Of a stretch of DNA of 10,754 nucleotides, positions 507-10,750 are shown piece by piece. Position 1 is the stretch's first letter. Each line of letters starts with the position of its first letter. Under the pieces are notes generated by a model. That model worked only from the letters and a program-made list of their open reading frames with translations, was not told the DNA's origin and ran no database searches. Source of the stretch: a virus; the UHGV virus genome UHGV-0300898. One strand, 5' to 3'. A program made the position numbers and the translations under genes.

Positions 507-2801
507 TTACTTACCAGCAGCAGCTTTGCCTTCGCCAGCAACGTTACCTGCTACACCACCTTCGGTTTGTTTCTGACCGTTCTGTTCAACAGAAACATTG
601 TAAGCCAGTTTTTCTTCAACCAGTTTGGTGATGCCTTTAACCCAGATCAGACCAGTGATCGGGCAGTGGCAGATGTGCGCGTTACGCGGCTGTACGGCCA
701 GCTCTTTAGAGGTAGAGCCGTTACGCTGAATGTTGATGTTAGTAACCATGATCGGAGACCAGAAGTGGTTACCCCAGTTCAGCACGTTGTAGGAACCATC
801 GTCCGCAGTCGGAACTTTCAGGAACCATTGCAGACGACGAGTCCAGGAACCGTCAGCTGCGTTGTAGATACGCCAGCGGTCATCGTTGGTGGTGATCACT
901 TCGTATTCGTAGCGATCGCCCAGCAGACGTTGGTCGCCCTGTACCAGCAGCAGCATGGATGCAGTCGGTTCGTCGGTTGCAATAACAACCTTCGGCAGAA
1001 TGTCCGGATCGGCAGTGTACAGACGCAGCGCAGGAATGAAGCGAGATTCCTGGATAGCCTGAGTTACCTGATTACCGATACGCTGTACCAGGCCCTGACG
1101 AGCGTTGATCAGTGCATCTTTGGTATCCAGGGACTGTACAACTTCATCAACGTTGTAGTCAGACTCTTTGAACCACGGAGCAACCCAGTGACGGCCCAGA
1201 CCACGAATGGCCGGTTTGTCCCACGGAGTGATCATGCTTGCAGCAGCGTTACGTACCGCTTCGGTGTAAGACAGCGTCTGAGTGATAGCCAGCTGTTCGT
1301 TACGGATGTTAACTGCGGAAATCAGGTCGTCCAGACGTTCGGTATCGTCGTATTCAACACCAACCGGAGACTTGGTCAGAATCGGAGAACCGTATTGCAG
1401 TTTGTAGTTTTCTTGTTCCCAGATTGGGTCAAGCAGCAGACCCTGGGTACGACGGTTTTCGTTGGTACGAGTACCATCGAAGCGCCAGCCCATCAGTTCG
1501 AGCTTCAGACCTTCCAGAACAACTTTGCCGGTACCAGATTTGGTATCAACCTTGTTACCGGTAGCGTCGTACAGACCTTCGATTTCCAGTTTGTGACCCG
1601 CGATGTCAACTTTACCACCAAACTGACCGGTAGTGAACAGAGACATGTTGATGGTGATCACATAACGCAGGGTGTAGGAGTTCTGTTCCAGTGTTTTCAG
1701 AGCCGGAATAGCTGCACCAGTCCAGTCGGTAGTTTTCGCGTTCAGAGAGAATGCGGTACGACGGAATTGCAGTACCAGCTCACGGCCATCGCCTTCAGCA
1801 GGACGCTGGAAGGTTGCGAACTGCATGTCACGAACGTGCAGTTTGATGAATTTACCTGCTTTCGCTTCTTCGGTCGGTTTACGTACAGAAATCAGCAGGC
1901 TGCCCAGAGCACAACCCGGTGCGATTTCATCAGTTTCGTCGTAACCTTCCTGAACGATACCCGGATGCGCAGACAGCTGGAACAGGTTCAGAGTGTCTTT
2001 AGCAAAGCTCAGGTAGTTAGTCGGGTACGGAGGTACACGGCCCAGACGAACAGATTCGTTCGGTACCAGATCTTCGCTTACGAAGTATTCAGCGTTTTCA
2101 CCGGTTTCCATTACGTAAGGAACGATGTTGATCGCTTCGTCCTGGAGAACGGTGTGGTCGGTCAGCGCGTTGTGCAGCGGACGACGATGATCTTCAACAA
2201 CGTCTTTGCTCAGCAGTGCGTTCATTACACCGCGAGAAACGGTGGTCACTTTGGTACGTACGGTAATACCAACATCGTTGGTGTCAACAGTGATGGTCGG
2301 GAACAGAGTCTCAGCGAAACGAGACTGGGTTTCCAGAGCACGTACGTTCAGCGTCCAGGTCAGACCCAGGTTTTTGTCGTAGTCTTTGTTGGTGTAGTAT
2401 TCCTGAGCGACAACCATACGCTCTTTGCCCCAGTCGCCGTTACCAGCTTGGGAACCAGGAATCGCAACGTCCAGGTTAAAACGGCTATGGAATTCTGGTT
2501 TAGCGTATTCTTGCGCTACTTTTTCTTGCAGGTCCATACCGTGACCAGCAGCACCCAGAATCATTGCAGAAGCAACTTCCGCAGCGTGGGACATTTTCTT
2601 ACCGCCAGCAAACGCGTTTGCGTAGTGCTGTGCAGCGTCGTCACGCAGGGTACCAAAAACTTTCGTGTTGCTACGTACAGATTCACCAGCAACGATGGTG
2701 TTCCACATTTCGCCAGCACTGTTGTTACTAATGACGCTTTGTACCAGCGAGTTACCAGCTTGTACGAGTTTCTCCAGATTAGAGATTCGGGTATCTTTCA
2801 T
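507..2801 (-). CDS. major virion structural protein, probably major capsid protein of a jumbo-type phage (764 aa); tail sheath is the alternative
   Basis: Longest ORF in the window. Codon usage is strongly biased toward high-expression codons (CGT, GGT, CTG, AAC, ACC, GAA), so strongly that the antisense strand carries an uninterrupted 752-aa artefactual ORF. SD TAAGGT lies 9 nt upstream of the ATG and a strong terminator follows the stop. Size matches the ~750-aa capsid proteins of phiKZ-like phages as I recall them. No homology search was possible. Confidence 0.85.
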   Translation of the reverse strand: MKDTRISNLEKLVQAGNSLVQSVISNNSAGEMWNTIVAGESVRSNTKVFGTLRDDAAQHYANAFAGGKKMSHAAEVASAMILGAAGHGMDLQEKVAQEYAKPEFHSRFNLDVAIPGSQAGNGDWGKERMVVAQEYYTNKDYDKNLGLTWTLNVRALETQSRFAETLFPTITVDTNDVGITVRTKVTTVSRGVMNALLSKDVVEDHRRPLHNALTDHTVLQDEAINIVPYVMETGENAEYFVSEDLVPNESVRLGRVPPYPTNYLSFAKDTLNLFQLSAHPGIVQEGYDETDEIAPGCALGSLLISVRKPTEEAKAGKFIKLHVRDMQFATFQRPAEGDGRELVLQFRRTAFSLNAKTTDWTGAAIPALKTLEQNSYTLRYVITINMSLFTTGQFGGKVDIAGHKLEIEGLYDATGNKVDTKSGTGKVVLEGLKLELMGWRFDGTRTNENRRTQGLLLDPIWEQENYKLQYGSPILTKSPVGVEYDDTERLDDLISAVNIRNEQLAITQTLSYTEAVRNAAASMITPWDKPAIRGLGRHWVAPWFKESDYNVDEVVQSLDTKDALINARQGLVQRIGNQVTQAIQESRFIPALRLYTADPDILPKVVIATDEPTASMLLLVQGDQRLLGDRYEYEVITTNDDRWRIYNAADGSWTRRLQWFLKVPTADDGSYNVLNWGNHFWSPIMVTNINIQRNGSTSKELAVQPRNAHICHCPITGLIWVKGITKLVEEKLAYNVSVEQNGQKQTEGGVAGNVAGEGKAAAGK

Positions 2802-2813
2802 TTGTTTAATACC

Positions 2814-3338
2814 TTAATGAGATAAATGACATGCGTATAATTGCGTCAGCACTTCGTTAGCGGCAAACTGCGTTGAGGTACTGAAGCAGTCATCCACGAC
2901 GCGAGTCTTGGTACGCATATATTTAAAAAGTTCTGCGCAGAACATCTTTTTCGCAGCGTGGTCTTCACCCGAAGAAAAACCCGAACCGGACTTTGCTTCT
3001 GCAAATGACGCCACAATCGTATCACCACGTTGAGTAAACACCCAACGTACGCGACAAGGAATTGTTTCCCCATATAAATCGTCAAGGGAAACCTTTTCGC
3101 CTGATTCGACCAGACGTAACACCTGATCATAATATTTACCTGGAAGCACAGGCGGAGCCATCAGTGCTTTATAAATAGCAGAACGACTTACTTCAGGTAA
3201 GATGATAGAACTGAAACCATTCGGACAGTCATATAACCAGTTAAAGAACCCTGCCTGGAGCAATTCTATACTTTTAACGGCAGCGCCTTTATCTATGTTA
3301 GGTTGAACTTCCCACGGTGGACTAAAACGAATTTGCAT
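2814..3338 (-). CDS. hypothetical protein (174 aa)
   Basis: Complete ORF in the track. SD GGAG lies 9 nt upstream of the ATG at 3338. Its stop TAA (2816..2814) overlaps the SD of the downstream 764-aa gene, giving a tightly packed co-directional pair. Confidence 0.7.
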   Translation of the reverse strand: MQIRFSPPWEVQPNIDKGAAVKSIELLQAGFFNWLYDCPNGFSSIILPEVSRSAIYKALMAPPVLPGKYYDQVLRLVESGEKVSLDDLYGETIPCRVRWVFTQRGDTIVASFAEAKSGSGFSSGEDHAAKKMFCAELFKYMRTKTRVVDDCFSTSTQFAANEVLTQLYACHLSH

Positions 3339-3351
3339 TTAAGGATGCTCC

Positions 3352-4914
3352 ATGAATAACAAAATGATGTTGATAACCGCCTTAGCCACATTATACGCTG
3401 AAAGTCTTCTGACCGATCCTGAAAAGGACCACGACATCATAAGAAAAGTGCTGTTAGAGGCTAAGCTTCCTGATTACGCAGAGGAAGGTGACGAACGTGC
3501 CGCCCTCGTCGAAATCAAGGATATCATCACATCCATCATAGACGGCGGTATGCCTTACGACCACACAAACGTCATGAAACGTTTGAAACTGGCCACTACG
3601 CAAATACGTCCTCTATACGATACGATTACCAAATTCCTGGAAGATGATATTCCAGAAGAACCAGAAGCACGCATCGAGCATCTTAATCGCCAAGTAGCAC
3701 AATACTACTTTCAGTTACGTCAAGCTATTCAAGGCGTACAACTGAAACAAAAATTGGGTCGTACGTTAGGCGCACTGAACGGTACCGAAACGCGCGTTGA
3801 TTTACAAACGGCGCTCAACGACCTTAAGGATACCTTATCCACGTTCAGTGAACGCTCTCATAATAAGATTCCTTCTCTGGTAGGGGAATTGATTACTGAC
3901 AATAAAGCACCTTTCGTGCACGTATTCGACTCTATCAGTAAGAAAGCGGCAGGGAACGGGTTGCGTACAGGTTGGAAAGCAATTAACCAGATGCTCGGTT
4001 GTAACAAAGGGATCACCGAAGAACTCTGGCTGATGCCTGCTCTCCCCTTTAACTGTAAGTCATTATTCAGTTTATTGCTCTCTATTAGCATTCCCGTTTT
4101 CAACACCCCAGAAAAGGTGATGGCGAATGTTAAGGGTGATCTACAACCGGTTATTCTAGATTTAAGTTTAGAAAACGAATTGGATGTTAACTTGGCTTAC
4201 GCGTATCAGGCACTATACGGACACTTTGAAGGTACAGCCCCGGTAATGGTTGCGCCAGAAACCGCAACTGACGAAGAAAAAGCGTCACATAATGCACAAA
4301 TGTCAGACTACCTCTGTAGTAAGATGCGGGCGAACGGTTGGGAGTATATTTTCCAAAAACACACAAACTCCGATTTTAAAATTCACTATTTAAACGATTT
4401 GATTTTAGATTTAAAACGTCGAGGTTATCATGTAGCTGGAATACGCGGAGACTATTTCGGTACTATCAGCAAAGCAGGGCACGGTAACGGCATTGCGGGT
4501 AGCGACATTAAAGAAATTTATCGTATCGCGCGAAACATCCAAGTGGTACGTAATCGTGGTTTCCTGTTAGCACCACACCAAATCTCACCAGAAGGCAAAA
4601 AATTAAAAGCACTCGACCCAGCAAGTTTCTGTAAGAACTTACCTGGTCGTGGTCTTCACGACAACTGCTCTAGCTTAGACAACGAAGCTGACGGTGAGAT
4701 GTATTTTAACAAACGTGTCGTCAACGGTCACAGCTATTTAGAAGTACAACGCGGTAAACACCGTACCATTATTGATACCAAAGAAGCTTATCATTATACT
4801 GTAATACCTTTCCGCGATGTTGGCATTTTGCCATGGGATTGTGATAAAGAAGAAACTGTAACAGCCTCGTCGATTAACGTATTTACCGGCGGCATGGGTG
4901 ACGAACTCTTTTGA
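3352..4914 (+). CDS. hypothetical protein (520 aa); helical, charged N-terminal region; no recognisable catalytic motif
   Basis: Complete ORF. SD AAGGA at 3340-3344 with a 7-nt spacer to the ATG. TGA stop is followed immediately by a GC hairpin at 4919-4936. The only plus-strand gene in the window. Confidence 0.8.
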   Translation: MNNKMMLITALATLYAESLLTDPEKDHDIIRKVLLEAKLPDYAEEGDERAALVEIKDIITSIIDGGMPYDHTNVMKRLKLATTQIRPLYDTITKFLEDDIPEEPEARIEHLNRQVAQYYFQLRQAIQGVQLKQKLGRTLGALNGTETRVDLQTALNDLKDTLSTFSERSHNKIPSLVGELITDNKAPFVHVFDSISKKAAGNGLRTGWKAINQMLGCNKGITEELWLMPALPFNCKSLFSLLLSISIPVFNTPEKVMANVKGDLQPVILDLSLENELDVNLAYAYQALYGHFEGTAPVMVAPETATDEEKASHNAQMSDYLCSKMRANGWEYIFQKHTNSDFKIHYLNDLILDLKRRGYHVAGIRGDYFGTISKAGHGNGIAGSDIKEIYRIARNIQVVRNRGFLLAPHQISPEGKKLKALDPASFCKNLPGRGLHDNCSSLDNEADGEMYFNKRVVNGHSYLEVQRGKHRTIIDTKEAYHYTVIPFRDVGILPWDCDKEETVTASSINVFTGGMGDELF

Positions 4915-5799: not shown

Positions 5800-6610
5800 T
5801 AGTCGCTACGTATTGAACATGGCCACATTCTTTACATTCCACGTTGGCTTTCGGGATTGTCAGGCCGGTTAAAGGAACACGGATTTGATACTGTGCTCCA
5901 CATTCTTCACAAACAAAATCGTATTCTGGATAGACACGACCTTCTAATTTCTCTTCTTTCCTTAGTGTGCCTGCTAAGAACAGCATCGCACCTAACGCTT
6001 CATTAATCTGCTGTTCCCATTCTCCGTCTAACGGGTAAGCGAACGCACGAGTCAACGTTTCCACCATCTCTGGAGTATTACTTACATAAACGTGTTTCAG
6101 TTCAAACTCAACACGTTGCAAGCCGAACAATACGCGCGCCGTCACGGTAACATTATCCAACGTTTGTGCAAACACAACGGGATTATCGTCACCATACATT
6201 GCGAATAACGCAGCACGTTCGTATTCGATATCACTCCACTCGATTAGTTCTACAGATTTAATCGCTTCCGCAATCTCAGCATTACCGAACGTTTCGTGTT
6301 CCAATAATCCGACGATAACTTCATTCAACGATTTCAATTGCTGTAATCGAATCGTAGGATCGGTATTCACGATAAGTAAACGATGCATTCTGGATTTCAA
6401 CCAGTTAATCGTTCCTTCTACACCGCCCCCAAACGAGCAGATGCTTATCACTTCAGGTTCACGAAGGATAAGAGTTGATTTTCCTGCTGCCGTACTCAAG
6501 TAGAGTTTAAAAGACTTATCGTTAGACTCTGCAACGATGGCAATGTCTTCAGTTGGAACGAAGTTTTCATTGCTCAGCCCACGCGGAAAATAATCTTTAA
6601 TAGTAATCAT
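5795..6610 (-). CDS. hypothetical protein with a C-terminal CxxC-N22-CxxC zinc-ribbon (271 aa)
   Basis: Complete ORF. SD GGAG is 8 nt upstream of the ATG at 6610. C-terminus reads ...VCEECGAQYQIRVPLTGLTIPKANVECKECGHVQY. Terminator immediately downstream. Confidence 0.75.
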   Translation of the reverse strand: MITIKDYFPRGLSNENFVPTEDIAIVAESNDKSFKLYLSTAAGKSTLILREPEVISICSFGGGVEGTINWLKSRMHRLLIVNTDPTIRLQQLKSLNEVIVGLLEHETFGNAEIAEAIKSVELIEWSDIEYERAALFAMYGDDNPVVFAQTLDNVTVTARVLFGLQRVEFELKHVYVSNTPEMVETLTRAFAYPLDGEWEQQINEALGAMLFLAGTLRKEEKLEGRVYPEYDFVCEECGAQYQIRVPLTGLTIPKANVECKECGHVQYVATK

Positions 6611-6625
6611 CTTTTATGCTCCAAT

Positions 6626-6659
6626 TAATAAAAAAATTAAGGGCACCCGAAGGTGCCTT
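6626..6659 (-). terminator. intrinsic terminator for the small lipoprotein-like gene (stem with UUCG tetraloop plus UAAUUUUUUUAUU in minus-strand RNA)
   Basis: Stem 6640-6647/6652-6659 (8 bp including one G-U pair) with plus-strand loop CGAA. The plus-strand A-run 6631-6636 gives a U7 tract on the minus strand, 5 nt after the TAA stop at 6665. Confidence 0.75.
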
Positions 6660-6664
6660 ATACA

Positions 6665-6808
6665 TTAACCACGACCAGTGCACTGTGCAACGGAATTACC
6701 GTTGTCGATGCAAGTGTCGTAGCCTTTGTCGATATCCAGGTACAGGCAACCCAGAACAACAGCGATAACAACAGCGAAGATAGCTTTTTTGTGTTTTACA
6801 GAAATCAT
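6665..6808 (-). CDS. small putative lipoprotein or membrane protein, 47 aa (MISVKHKKAIFAVVIAVVLGC|LYLDIDKGYDTCIDNGNSVAQCTGRG)
   Basis: Below the ORF-track cutoff. ATG at 6808..6806 is preceded by the perfect SD AGGAG with a 7-nt spacer. N-terminus has a basic region, then a hydrophobic stretch, then VVLGC, which fits the lipobox pattern. Leu at +2. Dedicated terminator downstream. Confidence 0.55.
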   Translation of the reverse strand: MISVKHKKAIFAVVIAVVLGCLYLDIDKGYDTCIDNGNSVAQCTGRG

Positions 6809-6902
6809 GATATAACTCCTAATTAGGTATTCGATAAATGAGTATTACGTAAACTCTCACCTAGGTAATATATATCTGAAATCTTTTTGAATCCATATAC
6901 CC

Positions 6903-6932
6903 TCTAGAACGCTCTAAAACGCATTCTAACGC
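6903..6932. repeat. three tandem 10-nt repeats (TCTAGAACGC / TCTAAAACGC / ATTCTAACGC) in the upstream region of the small lipoprotein gene
   Basis: Period of 10 bp, one helical turn. The first two units are 9/10 identical and the third shares CTAACGC. Located 95-125 nt upstream (minus sense) of the ATG at 6808. Confidence 0.6.
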
Positions 6933-7000
6933 AATTTTCTTTTTAAAGGGTAATTAGTCGTCTTAATGGAGAAATGACTTCTGTGTGGCGTTTAGGGATA

Positions 7001-7046
7001 AATAAAAGGTATTCCCGTTACCCACAGAGGTAACGGGAAGTTTTTA
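7001..7046. terminator. bidirectional intrinsic terminator (11-bp stem TTCCCGTTACC/GGTAACGGGAA) ending the minus-strand operon
   Basis: Stem 7012-7022/7029-7039 with loop CACAGA. The plus-strand T5 run at 7041-7045 overlaps the operon stop codon, and the A-rich tract at 7001-7008 gives UUUUAUU on the minus strand. Confidence 0.75.
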
Positions 7047-7844
7047 CAGACCTTGCATCTTATCCATTACAGCGATTTCAGGATCGCTAATGCCCGTCTT
7101 CGAAGAAATCATAAAGCGCTTATCGCTAATAGCTTCTACGGATTCGCGAATAAACAATGACTTTTCTTCCGCAACAGGAAGAATAGAATCGTTATCCTGC
7201 GGACCCACAAGCTGACAACTGAAAGGTACATAGCTGTTGAAGGTCACATAAGGACCTAACTGCAAGACCGGATACACTTCATTGAAGTTATTTGATGTGC
7301 CACTGTCTGTAGAAATAACAGAATAGCGCACCACCGCACGCACAGCCGTGGTATATTCAGGATCGCGGGCTTCACCCACTACGGTAAAACGAAACGCATT
7401 GAAGTCATAGTCTTCCGACTCACTAAAGTGTGAAGGGAGAATACGTTCAATATACTGAGGATAGGTTTCCTGTTGCCCTGGGGTAACCGCTGCAGCCAAT
7501 TTCTGAGCATAGAAGTAACAATAAGCAAAGCCGTATTGCGCTTCTAAAGCACCAGACACCACAGCAGTTGTGATCGCGTGCAGGAACAACAAGTGACCTA
7601 ACGTCCCTTTTTCTTCGATTGGTAATAAGCGACAATTCTGTACACCGTCTACGGTATAGATAACAGAAATCGTTTTGTCAGCGCTGGACGCCATGATGTA
7701 ATCCAACTGGCGTTGTTCGCCACCAGGAATAACATTAAGGCAACGTTCTAACAACTTCGACGGTTTCGAAAAATTCTCTTCTTCGAATTTGTCGATTTGA
7801 ATTAACGTTTGACCAGACATTCTGAAAGTAAGTAGATTACTCAT
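7044..7844 (-). CDS. hypothetical protein (266 aa, starting MSNLLTFRMSGQ...)
   Basis: The ORF track starts at a TTG (7850). I prefer the ATG two codons downstream (7844..7842), which has SD AAAGGA with a 7-nt spacer. Last gene of the operon; terminator hairpin directly after the TAA. Confidence 0.75.
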   Translation of the reverse strand: MSNLLTFRMSGQTLIQIDKFEEENFSKPSKLLERCLNVIPGGEQRQLDYIMASSADKTISVIYTVDGVQNCRLLPIEEKGTLGHLLFLHAITTAVVSGALEAQYGFAYCYFYAQKLAAAVTPGQQETYPQYIERILPSHFSESEDYDFNAFRFTVVGEARDPEYTTAVRAVVRYSVISTDSGTSNNFNEVYPVLQLGPYVTFNSYVPFSCQLVGPQDNDSILPVAEEKSLFIRESVEAISDKRFMISSKTGISDPEIAVMDKMQGL

Positions 7845-7876
7845 TAACAAATCCTTTAGGTTACGGACAACATAAT

Positions 7877-9736: not shown

Positions 9737-10750
9737 TTAATCCCTCGCATAGCGTAACAACAAATACACCATCGGGATGTAATAGAATTGCGCATCCTTC
9801 GGCAAACGGTAAACTTCTTCAAACAACCGCAACGCAATTACTGTCGACAGTGGGCGCTTATTCAGATAGAGATATAAACCGTATTCTAATAACGAACTGT
9901 ACGAGCCCTCGTAAAACGATGGGCTTAACAAATACGGCTTGTAGGTCAGCGGTAAAAACGCAGGGATCGATTCGCCTTCGTTACCCCGATAGTTCTCCAC
10001 TTCAACCGGTTCAAACTCCGTCCACTTCGGCCACTGTCCAGGAAAACGTTGTGCCATCCCATAACCTGGTTTTAATTCATCGGTAAAGAATCGGGTATCC
10101 GAAATTAATGACCAGGTCACAGAATTCCGATGCTGCATCGTGCGGAAGGTTTTTACCTGCCAGACACTGGAATCACGTTTGTAATCCGCTAAGAACGTTG
10201 GCGATTGATTTAACAATGCTGTCCAGACCGTTTCAATATCTTCCACACGCATTGGTGGGTGCGGGTAGATTTGAATATCTTTACCGACGGTCCGTAAGCC
10301 TACAGAGCGTACAAACTGTGCCAAGAACACATCGTAATACGCGCGACTACGCAACCCATCACTATGTCGATCGTGGGGGAAAAGCAACGTTGCCGTTTCC
10401 CCATCGTAAAACCGTTTTACGTAAGTCTGTTCAATATCCGCAATCGCATCAACAATTTTCAAAAACGCACGGTATTCTTTCGGTGTCAGTAACGTATCAC
10501 CGCCCGTCCAGGCACGTTCAGAAACGTAATAATACTCACGAACCGTACAACGACGAATGGTTTCTGCAACGCCCGGATCAACTTCAAACAGCAACGTATA
10601 CTCGATGTTATACGTTGCAATTTTGTTATTAGACATCCGCACGACGTTAGTGACGTTGAACAACGCAAACCGTCCGTCTCCGATCGGGGCAACGAAAAAA
10701 CACCCTTCATTGGGAATCACCGAGTTCGCCATTGTTGCGGCACCGGACAT
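9737..10750 (-). CDS. hypothetical protein (at least 337 aa); the N-terminus may extend beyond the window end
   Basis: Long open frame. The first ATG is only 4 nt from the window edge, so neither an RBS nor an upstream extension can be assessed. First gene of the co-directional operon in this window. Confidence 0.7.
   Translation of the reverse strand: MSGAATMANSVIPNEGCFFVAPIGDGRFALFNVTNVVRMSNNKIATYNIEYTLLFEVDPGVAETIRRCTVREYYYVSERAWTGGDTLLTPKEYRAFLKIVDAIADIEQTYVKRFYDGETATLLFPHDRHSDGLRSRAYYDVFLAQFVRSVGLRTVGKDIQIYPHPPMRVEDIETVWTALLNQSPTFLADYKRDSSVWQVKTFRTMQHRNSVTWSLISDTRFFTDELKPGYGMAQRFPGQWPKWTEFEPVEVENYRGNEGESIPAFLPLTYKPYLLSPSFYEGSYSSLLEYGLYLYLNKRPLSTVIALRLFEEVYRLPKDAQFYYIPMVYLLLRYARD

What the first reader, a model, noticed from the sequence alone, without database searches (positions are those of the whole stretch)
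6809..7000. Upstream region of the small lipoprotein gene with 10-bp tandem repeats and an AT-rich promoter-like motif
Three tandem units of period 10 bp (TCTAGAACGC, TCTAAAACGC, ATTCTAACGC at 6903-6932) lie 95-125 nt upstream of the gene. Helical-turn spacing is typical of binding sites for a regulatory protein on one face of the DNA. On the minus strand at 6872..6865 is TATATTAC, which matches what I recall (without certainty) as the early-promoter consensus reported for phiKZ-like phages. Together these suggest a separately regulated, possibly early, transcription unit.
Basis: partly seen in the sequence, partly recalled or inferred. Interest (0 to 1): 0.45.

Follow-up and report, generated by a model that had tools for sequence, protein, structure and literature searches.

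The report
Jumbo-phage early promoter plus shared repeat block
The region upstream of the small lipoprotein gene holds an ordinary jumbo-phage early promoter, but the 10-bp repeats next to it are a roughly 38-bp non-coding element also found almost unchanged in unrelated enterobacterial phages, plasmids and genomic islands, and its binding partner is unknown.

Summary
Both observations are exact. The three 10-bp units lie at 6903-6932 and TATATTAC at 6872..6865 on the minus strand. Neither is significant alone; comparison makes both real.

The window comes from an uncultivated SPN3US-like jumbo phage. TATATTAC is the core of a 36-nt promoter, GGATTCAAAAAGATTTCAGATATATATTACCTAGGT. This promoter recurs 3-9 times per genome, only in such phages, always in intergenic DNA on the coding strand. 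It matches the published virion-RNA-polymerase early promoter family of phiKZ, OBP, N1M2 and AR9. The predicted start is G6858. A 5' hairpin whose stem covaries between copies usually follows, then a 50-nt leader, AGGAG and the ATG. Terminators on both sides make the 47-aa gene its own transcription unit. This part is a new member of a known kind.

The repeats are a separate module. A block close to AAAAnCGCTTAGAATGCGTTTTAGAGCGTTTTAGAGGGTAT, always in 10-bp register, also lies in non-coding DNA of T5-like phages, Vequintavirinae, Ounavirinae, E. coli islands, IncX plasmids and a 2-kb iteron plasmid. I found no description of it and no known binding site that fits. It is probably a phased protein-binding array, perhaps for a host factor. 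That is inference.

The parts
7012..7039 (-). Rho-independent terminator of the upstream gene (268 aa, orthologue of SPN3US gp65). The hairpin is TTCCCGTTACC/GGTAACGGGAA and also reads as a terminator on the + strand.
   Evidence: The stem is kept, with base changes, in the orthologous regions.
6941..6952 (-). Distal arm (TACCCTTTAAAA on the sense strand) of an imperfect inverted repeat. Its other arm (6898-6909) overlaps the last repeat unit. An equivalent pair, ACCCTCTAAA...TATAGAGGGT, is present in SPN3US.
   Evidence: pair I4, 12 nt, 83% complementary.
6895..6932 (-). Phased-repeat block. On the sense strand it reads GCGTTAGAAT GCGTTTTAGA GCGTTCTAGA GGGTATAT, preceded by an A-run at 6933-6941. 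It is a module shared across replicon types; its recognition partner is unknown.
6859..6894 (-). Extended promoter of the virion-RNA-polymerase (early) type, GGATTCAAAAAGATTTCAGATATATATTACCTAGGT.
   Evidence: 70.4 bits. Family consensus.
6858..6858 (-). Predicted transcription start (G). It lies 6 nt after the conserved element, following the AR9, phiKZ and phiR1-37 rule.
   Evidence: Rule taken. In 29 of 41 copies (41 distinct 220-nt contexts; 34 distinct leader sequences) this G is the first paired base of the 5' hairpin. Inferred, not mapped.
6839..6858 (-). 5'-terminal leader hairpin region, GAGAGUUUACGUAAUACUCA. It is weak in this copy (-2.7 kcal/mol, pairs +3..+6 with +16..+19) but strong and covarying in most other copies.
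6809..6838 (-). Rest of the 50-nt leader, with the Shine-Dalgarno AGGAG at 6820..6816.
   Evidence: Median leader length in the family is 51 nt.
6665..6808 (-). 47-aa gene, MISVKHKKAIFAVVIAVVLGCLYLDIDKGYDTCIDNGNSVAQCTGRG. It has a signal peptide with a lipobox-like VLGC. It belongs to phrog_8574 (unknown function) and is the orthologue of SPN3US gp66.
6642..6657 (-). Rho-independent terminator that closes the one-gene unit (GGCACCTTCGGGTGCC followed by a T-run).

Best explanation
The 235-nt spacer is a composite regulatory region made of two independent modules.

(1) A promoter of the class used by the virion-packaged multisubunit RNA polymerase of phiKZ-related jumbo phages. The polymerase would recognise ...ATTTCAGATATATATTACCTAGGT and start at G6858. 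The resulting one-gene mRNA begins with a 5' stem-loop, carries a 50-nt leader with AGGAG, encodes the 47-aa lipoprotein-like product and ends at the hairpin at 6657..6642. The upstream terminator at 7039..7012 insulates it from read-through. The 5'-terminal hairpin most plausibly protects the early mRNA from 5'-end-dependent decay, or is part of the initially transcribed signal.

(2) About 20 bp upstream sits a 38-bp block of three to four 10-bp units (GCGTT-N5 in exact helical register). It is a portable cis-element shared with unrelated enterobacterial phages, IncX plasmids, a 2-kb iteron plasmid and integrative islands. The most likely mechanism is head-to-tail binding of several copies of one sequence-specific protein along one face of the DNA. 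Because a 2-kb plasmid that seems to encode little beyond its Rep also carries the block, that protein is more likely host-encoded than phage-encoded. Here it could modulate, or simply sit beside, the early promoter.

Shown: conservation, copy distribution, architecture, covariation. Inferred: which polymerase, the timing, the start site, any binding protein.
For: Identity of the phage. Capsid and helicase DNA is about 80% identical to SPN3US and to Erwinia jumbo phages. The window is 96-98% identical to two uncultivated 220-225-kb contigs and syntenic with SPN3US gp65-gp66.

Promoter.
- In a 2-kb query around the site, the only DNA matching other jumbo phages was this 40-100-nt stretch.
- A 33-nt core is invariant upstream of different genes in four phages.
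- The exact 21-nt core occurs only in jumbo-phage contigs: 41 distinct contexts, 3-6 per genome.
- SPN3US has 8-9 sites, all on the + strand and in intergenic DNA. One precedes the gp22-gp23 RNA-polymerase-subunit operon.
- The published consensus family fits: phiKZ TATATTAC, 201phi2-1 ...TATATTACDWHDGTG, N1M2 ...TTTCARRYAKATATTATYWAAGTGWA, and AR9 AAATATATATTAT-(6N)-G+1 with the start 6 nt downstream.
- Such motifs mark early operons transcribed by the virion polymerase.

Other anatomy. No sigma-70 promoter is present, and terminators lie on both sides. For the hairpin, 39 of 41 copies fold from +1 to +3, with a mean z-score of -2.0. Pair types vary at +4, +5, +7 and +8. Native leaders fold to -5.4 kcal/mol against -2.9 for chimeras.

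Block. The units keep a 10-bp register without indels in every lineage.
Against: No transcript mapping exists for SPN3US-like phages in the literature I could search, so the polymerase, the timing and the start site are by analogy only.

There are only about 9 sites per 240 kb, against roughly 30 in N1M2, OBP and AR9. This could be a subclass of early promoters rather than the whole class.

The window's own 5' hairpin is weak (z = -0.2).

For the block:
- No binding protein is identified.
- No highly similar copy sits in the core E. coli chromosome; only 816 of 5426 genomes match, and the one chromosomal hit I examined lies in an island.
- The spacing between block and promoter varies (0, +2, +10, +10 bp). 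This argues against a rigid activator geometry.
- Its orientation relative to neighbouring genes is not constant.
- In nucleus-forming jumbo phages a host protein may not reach the DNA after the first minutes of infection.
Confidence: 0.75

Rival explanations
1. The repeat block is a replication-associated cis-element: a priming or single-strand initiation signal, or an origin accessory site. It would not be a transcriptional regulator, and its position beside the promoter here would be incidental.
For: In IncX4 and IncX1 plasmids it lies between the R6K-like gamma origin (iterons plus DnaA boxes) and the next operon. In the 2-kb plasmid pRGI01177 it lies about 250 nt from four 22-bp iterons. 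In T5-like phages it abuts DnaA boxes. In the E. coli islands it precedes an operon with an HTH_36 replication-initiator-like gene. There are 1-3 copies per replicon. Many copies can form a small hairpin, AACGC-N7-GCGTT, with one compensatory variant ATCGC/GCGAT.
Against: It shows no similarity to the G4 complementary-strand origin. The hairpin is absent from the window's own copy and from the island copies. Published work places T5 replication origins mid-genome, not in the terminal repeat. The IncX alpha and beta origins lie elsewhere. In jumbo phages it sits directly upstream of promoters at several different loci.
Confidence: 0.2
2. The block is bound by a protein encoded by a mobile element, which phages, plasmids and islands have exchanged together with its site. 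Examples would be a small ribbon-helix-helix, helix-turn-helix or winged-helix regulator.
For: The block is confined to mobile elements in everything examined. The IncX4 copy is about 31 of 34 identical to one jumbo-phage variant (by eye), which suggests recent exchange. Direct repeats at helical spacing are typical of such regulators.
Against: No flanking gene is shared between contexts (tblastn). The only annotated helix-turn-helix regulator of SPN3US, gp101, has homologues only in jumbo phages. The 2-kb plasmid appears to encode little beyond a Rep and a short lipoprotein-like ORF (read by eye).
Confidence: 0.15
3. The repeats have no function of their own. They would be a recombination scar or short mobile linker that spreads between phage and plasmid non-coding regions, and the promoter alone accounts for expression.
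For: Copy number and location are irregular. Only 9 of 41 promoter copies carry the block. Its orientation relative to neighbouring genes varies. In SPN3US one copy lies between convergent genes.
Against: The 35-40 nt are held at about 70-97% identity (4-9 mismatches of 36) across at least four phage families plus plasmids, while the adjoining spacer DNA is unalignable. The 10-bp register is never broken by indels. It has a fixed position at the start of the conserved injection-stop region in hundreds of T5-like genomes. All of this indicates purifying selection.
Confidence: 0.08
4. TATATTAC and its surroundings are a host sigma-70 -10-like element, or a chance AT-rich patch, rather than a phage-polymerase promoter.
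For: On window statistics a single octamer is not significant.
Against: There is no -35/-10 pair. A 30-36-nt consensus is conserved at 54-70 bits, against at most -11 bits in shuffles. It is exclusive to jumbo phages in IMG/VR. It matches published early-promoter consensus sequences.
Confidence: 0.03

Closest known systems
Early (virion RNA polymerase) promoters of phiKZ-related jumbo phages: phiKZ TATATTAC; 201phi2-1, OBP and N1M2 extended consensus; AR9 AAATATATATTAT-(6N)-G+1
   Same: It has an AT-rich invariant core containing TATATTAC. The TTTCA(R)(R) box upstream and the (A/G)GTG box downstream match the OBP, N1M2 and 201phi2-1 consensus. A G lies 6 nt after the core. It recurs upstream of operons on the coding strand, and it is found only in genomes that carry split beta/beta' polymerase genes.
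   Different: There are far fewer copies per genome (about 9 in SPN3US, 3-4 exact cores in the window's closest relatives). The conserved stretch is very long (about 36 nt, almost invariant between genera). It is followed by a covarying 5'-terminal hairpin and a semi-conserved leader, so it behaves as a whole promoter-leader cassette. I found no transcript mapping for this clade.
Promoter-early stem-loop (PeSL) cassettes of T4-type phages (recalled from memory: Arbiol et al. 2010)
   Same: Short portable regulatory cassettes, consisting of a terminator hairpin, an early promoter and a leader, are reiterated in front of different small early genes.
   Different: Those cassettes use host sigma-70 promoters. 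Here the promoter belongs to the phage-polymerase class, and the hairpin lies at the 5' end of the transcript.
Phased direct-repeat operator arrays, such as OmpR/PhoB/CpxR-type response-regulator sites, MraZ boxes, excisionase or Cox boxes, and ParR/StbA centromere repeats
   Same: It has three to four units in the same orientation at exactly one helical turn. On the complementary strand many copies read CTAAA-N5-CTAAA, which resembles the CpxR box GTAAA-N5-GTAAA (consensus recalled from memory).
   Different: No known consensus fits across the whole 10-bp unit. Conservation extends over all 38 bp rather than a 5-6-bp core. No cognate protein is identified.
The non-coding injection-stop-signal region (Repeat Region 3) of T5-like phages
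   Same: The T5-like copy of the block lies at the left edge of this region. It sits about 50 nt after the last first-step-transfer terminator and directly before a LexA-box-like palindrome and the DnaA boxes.
   Different: The published descriptions list palindromes, inverted repeats, DnaA boxes and the DRA-DRE repeats. I could not identify the block among them: it is not annotated in either T5 record I read, and I did not see the paper's figures. The jumbo phage has none of the other elements of that region.

Membership tests
phiKZ-type virion-RNA-polymerase (early) promoter | A highly conserved AT-rich element of about 10-13 nt containing or resembling TATATTAC | tested here: met
   AGATATATATTAC lies at 6877..6865.
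phiKZ-type virion-RNA-polymerase (early) promoter | The motif is over-represented and lies upstream of operons on the coding strand | tested here: met
   SPN3US has 8-9 matrix hits of 14-68 bits, the weakest (14.3 bits) being marginal. All are on the + strand and intergenic, against a shuffle maximum of -11 bits. IMG/VR holds 41 distinct copies, only in jumbo-phage contigs. This was tested in relatives. The window itself holds a single copy.
phiKZ-type virion-RNA-polymerase (early) promoter | The genome encodes two sets of split beta/beta' RNA polymerase subunits, one of them packaged in the virion | tested here: inconclusive
   Five beta and one beta' subunit genes are annotated in the syntenic relative SPN3US. 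The 10.7-kb window contains none. That the window belongs to such a genome follows from 96-98% identity to 220-225-kb contigs and about 80% identity to SPN3US capsid and helicase DNA.
phiKZ-type virion-RNA-polymerase (early) promoter | Transcription starts about 6 nt downstream of the element, at a purine (G) | not testable with these tools
   The sequence is compatible: G6858 lies 6 nt after TAC, and hairpins begin there in 29 of 41 copies. No 5'-end data are available.
phiKZ-type virion-RNA-polymerase (early) promoter | Early timing, with independence from the host polymerase and from new protein synthesis | not testable with these tools
   The only indirect support is that one site precedes the gp22-gp23 polymerase-subunit operon in SPN3US.
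Sigma-70 promoter | -35 and -10 hexamers at 16-18-bp spacing | tested here: not met
   None found in 6500-7200 on either strand.
   The units are exactly 10 bp apart with no indels in any lineage. The block stands out as a conserved footprint in the orthologous spacers.
   The candidate gp101 helix-turn-helix protein is confined to jumbo phages. No flanking gene is shared between contexts.
G4-type single-strand initiation signal | Sequence or structure resemblance to the G4 complementary-strand origin | tested here: not met
   G4 3870-4030 was read. It shares only a 7-nt CCCTCTA.
T5 single-chain interruption (nick) site | Consensus R/GCGCRGG | tested here: not met
   The consensus comes and is absent from the block. 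The annotated T5 nick at 9748-9749 lies about 360 nt from the block.
Known RNA families (Rfam) | A covariance-model match | tested here: not met
   No credible hit in the window at 6600-7100, nor in five block-bearing loci.

The most novel reading that the evidence does not exclude
The 10-bp repeats are one copy of a previously undescribed, strongly conserved 38-bp cis-element (about AAAAnCGCTTAGAATGCGTTTTAGAGCGTTTTAGAGGGTAT). It is common to otherwise unrelated mobile replicons of Enterobacterales: SPN3US-like jumbo phages, T5-like phages (inside the injection-stop region), Vequintavirinae, Ounavirinae, IncX plasmids, minimal iteron plasmids and integrative islands. A single, probably host-encoded, factor would recognise it, and incoming foreign DNA would exploit that factor for establishment, through early expression, replication or priming, or anchoring.
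Probability: 0.35. Interest if true: 0.7.

Novelty: new member of a known kind. Interest (0 to 1): 0.5.

Why it matters
The promoter result gives a ready sequence definition for the SPN3US, Erwinia and Salmonella jumbo-phage clade: a roughly 36-nt consensus, a predicted start site, a 5' hairpin and a leader. No transcription map was found for this clade. With this definition, early operons can be annotated by sequence and the predictions checked with a single dRNA-seq experiment.

The repeat block matters more if it holds up. It is a non-coding sequence kept nearly identical across phage families that share no genes, and across plasmids and islands. That points to a common dependency on one cellular factor or process. 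The block sits at the edge of the T5 injection-stop region, whose mechanism is still unresolved, and beside the origins of IncX resistance plasmids. Identifying its partner could therefore bear on both questions.

Tried and rejected
- **T5 nick site.** The consensus R/GCGCRGG does not match the block.
- **Sigma-70 promoter** in or around the block or the TATATTAC element. None was found, and hand checks of TAGAAT as a -10 element found no -35.
- **Known RNA families.** None matched.
- **G4-type priming origin.** No resemblance.
- **IncX alpha or beta origin, or oriT.** Published maps place these elsewhere.
- **SPN3US gp101 helix-turn-helix protein as a shared binding factor.** Its homologues occur only in jumbo phages.
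- **Co-transferred flanking genes.** None found.
- **Known binding sites, compared by eye and from memory.** DnaA, LexA, IHF, Fis, CRP, Lrp, PurR, DeoR, GlpR, OmpR, CpxR, lambda CII and boxA were checked. Only a weak CpxR-like CTAAA-N5-CTAAA turned up.
- **Literature searches by sequence string.** They returned only sgRNA-scaffold primers and unrelated hits.
- **The one scan of bacterial genomes.** The pattern was too short for a 596-Gb collection and returned mostly chance hits. I reused those hits as a flank-conditioned negative control.
- **RNAalifold on an ungapped leader alignment.** It found no structure because loop lengths differ. I replaced it with per-sequence folding and a chimera control.
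- **A universal hairpin in the first repeat unit.** It is present in many copies but absent from the window and the islands.

Full report
**1. What the sequence shows**

TCTAGAACGC, TCTAAAACGC and ATTCTAACGC lie at 6903-6932. TATATTAC occurs once, at 6872..6865 on the minus strand.

The relevant strand is the minus strand. The region 6809-7043 is the spacer between two minus-strand genes. One is 7044..7850 (268 aa). The other is the 47-aa ORF 6665..6808, MISVKHKKAIFAVVIAVVLGCLYLDIDKGYDTCIDNGNSVAQCTGRG, which has a signal peptide with a lipobox-like VLGC.

Within the window alone neither feature is significant. Tandem Repeats Finder reports 2.1 copies with score 35. A single TATATTAC arises by chance in 54 of 200 shuffles. 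Everything that follows rests on comparison with other sequences.

**2. Where the window comes from**

The capsid and helicase part of the window is about 80% identical in DNA to Salmonella phage SPN3US and to Erwinia jumbo phages. The window is 96-98% identical to two uncultivated viral contigs of 225 and 221 kb. Gene order matches SPN3US gp65, spacer, gp66, where gp66 is a 47-aa protein of phrog_8574. SPN3US carries several split RNA-polymerase beta/beta' genes.

**3. The TATATTAC element is a conserved jumbo-phage promoter**

In a 2-kb query around the site, the only DNA that matched other jumbo phages was a 40-100-nt piece of this spacer. It matched intergenic sites in front of unrelated genes. 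An alignment of four such sites gives an invariant core, AAAAGATTTCAGATATATATTACCTAGGTGAGA.

Copy distribution:
- The exact 21-nt core AGATATATATTACYTAGGTGA occurs in IMG/VR only in jumbo-phage contigs. There are 41 distinct contexts, with 3-6 per genome.
- In the complete SPN3US genome, 6 of the 9 TATATTAC copies lie 60-90 nt upstream of start codons.
- A position matrix finds 8-9 sites at 14-68 bits, the weakest being marginal. All are on the + strand and intergenic. One precedes the gp22-gp23 polymerase-subunit operon. Shuffled genomes never exceed -11 bits.
- The window's site scores 70.4 bits. The matrix includes the window's own copy and its two near-identical relatives, so that figure is somewhat circular.

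Agreement with published promoters:
- Published predicted or mapped early promoters are phiKZ TATATTAC, 201phi2-1 ...TATATTACDWHDGTG, and OBP and N1M2 ...AWWWWWTTTCARRYAKATATTATYWAAGTGWA.
- AR9 is AAATATATATTAT-(6N)-G+1, and the phiKZ and phiR1-37 starts are also 6 nt downstream.
- The element here, ATTCAAAAAGATTTCAGATATATATTACCTAGGTGAG, fits this family position by position.
- Such motifs mark early operons read by the virion-packaged polymerase.
- No sigma-70 promoter is present.

I therefore assign the element to the virion-polymerase promoter class and predict a start at G6858. The polymerase, the timing and the start site are inferred by analogy. I found no transcript map for this clade.

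**4. A promoter-leader cassette**

In 19 of the 41 copies a terminator hairpin and T-run sit directly upstream of the promoter.

Downstream, 39 of 41 leaders fold into a hairpin that begins at +1 to +3. In 29 of them it begins exactly at the predicted +1. The mean z-score is -2.0. The stems differ between copies but stay paired. Examples are GAGAGUUA/UAACUCUC, GAGCAUUGA/UCAAUGCUU, GAGGAU/AUCCUC and GAUAGA/UCUAUC. Several pair types occur at +4, +5, +7 and +8. Native leaders fold to -5.4 kcal/mol, against -2.9 for chimeras that join one copy's 5' arm to another copy's remainder.

The window's own hairpin is weak (-2.7 kcal/mol). Median leader length is 51 nt; the window's is 50 nt.

Terminators at 7039..7012 and 6657..6642 bracket the gene. 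It is therefore a self-contained one-gene unit.

**5. The 10-bp repeats are a separate and much more widely distributed module**

Read on the sense strand, the block is GCGTTAGAAT GCGTTTTAGA GCGTTCTAGA GGGTATAT (6932..6895).

Within jumbo phages:
- In six orthologous spacers, the block and the promoter stand out as conserved footprints while the rest of the spacer diverges.
- Only 9 of 41 promoter copies, at four different loci, carry the block.
- The spacing from block to promoter varies by 0, +2 or +10 bp.
- SPN3US has a second copy between convergent genes, with no promoter beside it.

Outside jumbo phages, near-identical blocks occur in:
- T5-like Demerecviridae, for example GCGTTAGAATGCGTTACAGAGCGTTTTAGAGCTATATTAG. 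In T5 itself the block lies inside the annotated injection-stop-signal region. It sits about 50 nt after the last terminator and directly before a LexA-box-like palindrome and the DnaA boxes.
- Vequintavirinae, in EspYZU15 and PVP-SE1.
- Ounavirinae, in Arno162.
- E. coli integrative islands, upstream of an operon with an HTH_36 replication-initiator-like gene.
- More than 1,300 enterobacterial plasmid records matched at a permissive threshold. In the three I examined the block is clear: IncX4 and IncX1 plasmids, where it lies between the R6K-like gamma origin and a toxin-antitoxin operon, and the 2,006-bp iteron plasmid pRGI01177.

In every example I examined the block is non-coding, the 10-bp register is never broken by an indel, and the flanking genes are unrelated. 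Among the organism names listed for the phage matches, all are hosts in Enterobacterales.

As a control I used 113 chance loci from bacterial genomes that contain the same central 18-mer pattern. They match the window at 4.8 +/- 2.1 of the 18 flanking positions. The phage, plasmid and island loci mostly match at 8-18.

**6. What the block might be**

I could not identify its partner. The following were rejected by sequence:
- the T5 nick consensus;
- a sigma-70 promoter;
- Rfam families;
- the G4 priming origin;
- the IncX alpha and beta origins and oriT.

By eye, and from remembered consensus sequences, the DnaA, LexA, IHF, Fis, CRP, Lrp, PurR, DeoR, GlpR, OmpR and lambda CII sites and boxA do not fit. 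Only a weak CpxR-like CTAAA-N5-CTAAA appears on the complementary strand.

The SPN3US helix-turn-helix protein gp101 is confined to jumbo phages. Many copies can form a small AACGC-N7-GCGTT hairpin with one compensatory variant, but the window and island copies cannot.

Three features fit a head-to-tail protein array on one DNA face: the helical register, conservation of the full length, and independence from orientation. The block's presence in a 2-kb plasmid that seems to encode little beyond its Rep favours a host factor, or a replication or priming role. This is inference. String searches of the open-access literature found no description of the element. Davison's account of the T5 region lists many repeats, and I could not identify the block among those it names.

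**7. Verdict**

The promoter and separate-unit reading is supported by strong comparative evidence, and the promoter is a new member of a known kind. The idea that the repeats are this gene's regulator sites is only partly supported. They do look like a phased binding array, but they belong to an element shared between replicon types, whose function is unknown. That element is the more interesting lead.

Noticed in passing
window 6839-6858 (minus strand); 41 related copies in L014-L066: Transcripts from this promoter class are predicted to begin with a stem-loop that starts at +1 to +3. The stem sequences differ between copies but stay paired (compensatory changes at +4, +5, +7 and +8). This suggests a conserved 5'-end structure on early jumbo-phage mRNAs.
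   Followed up: yes
L009:1252-1330, L187:1015-1130, L190:1050-1250 (T5-like phages): In T5-like phages the block is followed within about 30 nt by a near-perfect LexA-box-like palindrome, TACTGTATAAATATACAGTA, and then by paired DnaA boxes. All of this lies inside the annotated injection-stop-signal region.
   Followed up: partly
L216:3496-3536 and 3686-3716 (IncX4 plasmid); L217:3501-3536 (IncX1); L218 minus strand 690-640 (2-kb plasmid pRGI01177): The same block occurs in IncX plasmids, between the gamma origin and a toxin-antitoxin operon, and in a minimal iteron plasmid. The IncX4 copy is about 31 of 34 identical to the variant in the jumbo-phage contigs L048 and L050.
   Followed up: partly
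L012:4001-4041; L017, L025, L027, L030 (E. coli and IMG/VR integrative elements): The block also lies in small integrative islands (the E. coli one, L012, sits next to tRNA-Thr). These carry an integrase, a resolvase, Mrr-like and other restriction-endonuclease-like genes, and an HTH_36 rep-like gene. The block sits about 250 nt upstream of the small-ORF operon that leads to the rep-like gene.
   Followed up: partly
SPN3US 137545-137579 (L006:37546; L022:3936) and 240167 (minus strand): SPN3US has a second full copy of the block between the convergent genes gp158 and gp159, next to a bidirectional terminator and with no promoter. A weaker third copy lies near the end of the deposited sequence.
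   Followed up: partly
window 507-2825: The major capsid gene (507..2801, minus strand, 764 aa) is shadowed by an almost full-length open frame on the opposite strand (567..2825, plus strand, 752 aa, TTG start). An antisense frame this long without a stop codon is unusual.
   Followed up: no
window 6665-6808: The 47-aa product has a signal peptide with a lipobox-like VLGC and a 27-residue mature part (counted from the lipobox Cys) holding three cysteines in all. It is conserved at exactly 47 aa in SPN3US gp66 (phrog_8574, unknown function). An early small lipoprotein could be a superinfection-exclusion or receptor-blocking factor like T5 Llp. That idea is speculation.
   Followed up: partly
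L189 (PP355766.1, Klebsiella phage vB_Kpn_AM_K4, 288 kb, filed under Straboviridae): This record contains a segment whose gene layout is nearly coordinate-for-coordinate the same as that of the T5-like phage Roth37 (L190). The 288-kb record may be a chimeric assembly of a T4-like and a T5-like phage.
   Followed up: no
L199:4380-4475 (248-kb IMG/VR jumbo-phage contig): A more distant jumbo phage carries the block directly upstream of a variant promoter, TTTCAGATAGATATTACTAAGGTGAAC, followed by a hairpin. The block-promoter pairing therefore recurs with a diverged promoter.
   Followed up: no
window 6859-6866: Between the core and the predicted start, the promoter contains the perfect 8-bp palindrome ACCTAGGT. 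The frequent variant ACTTAGGT breaks it, so the symmetry is probably incidental.
   Followed up: no
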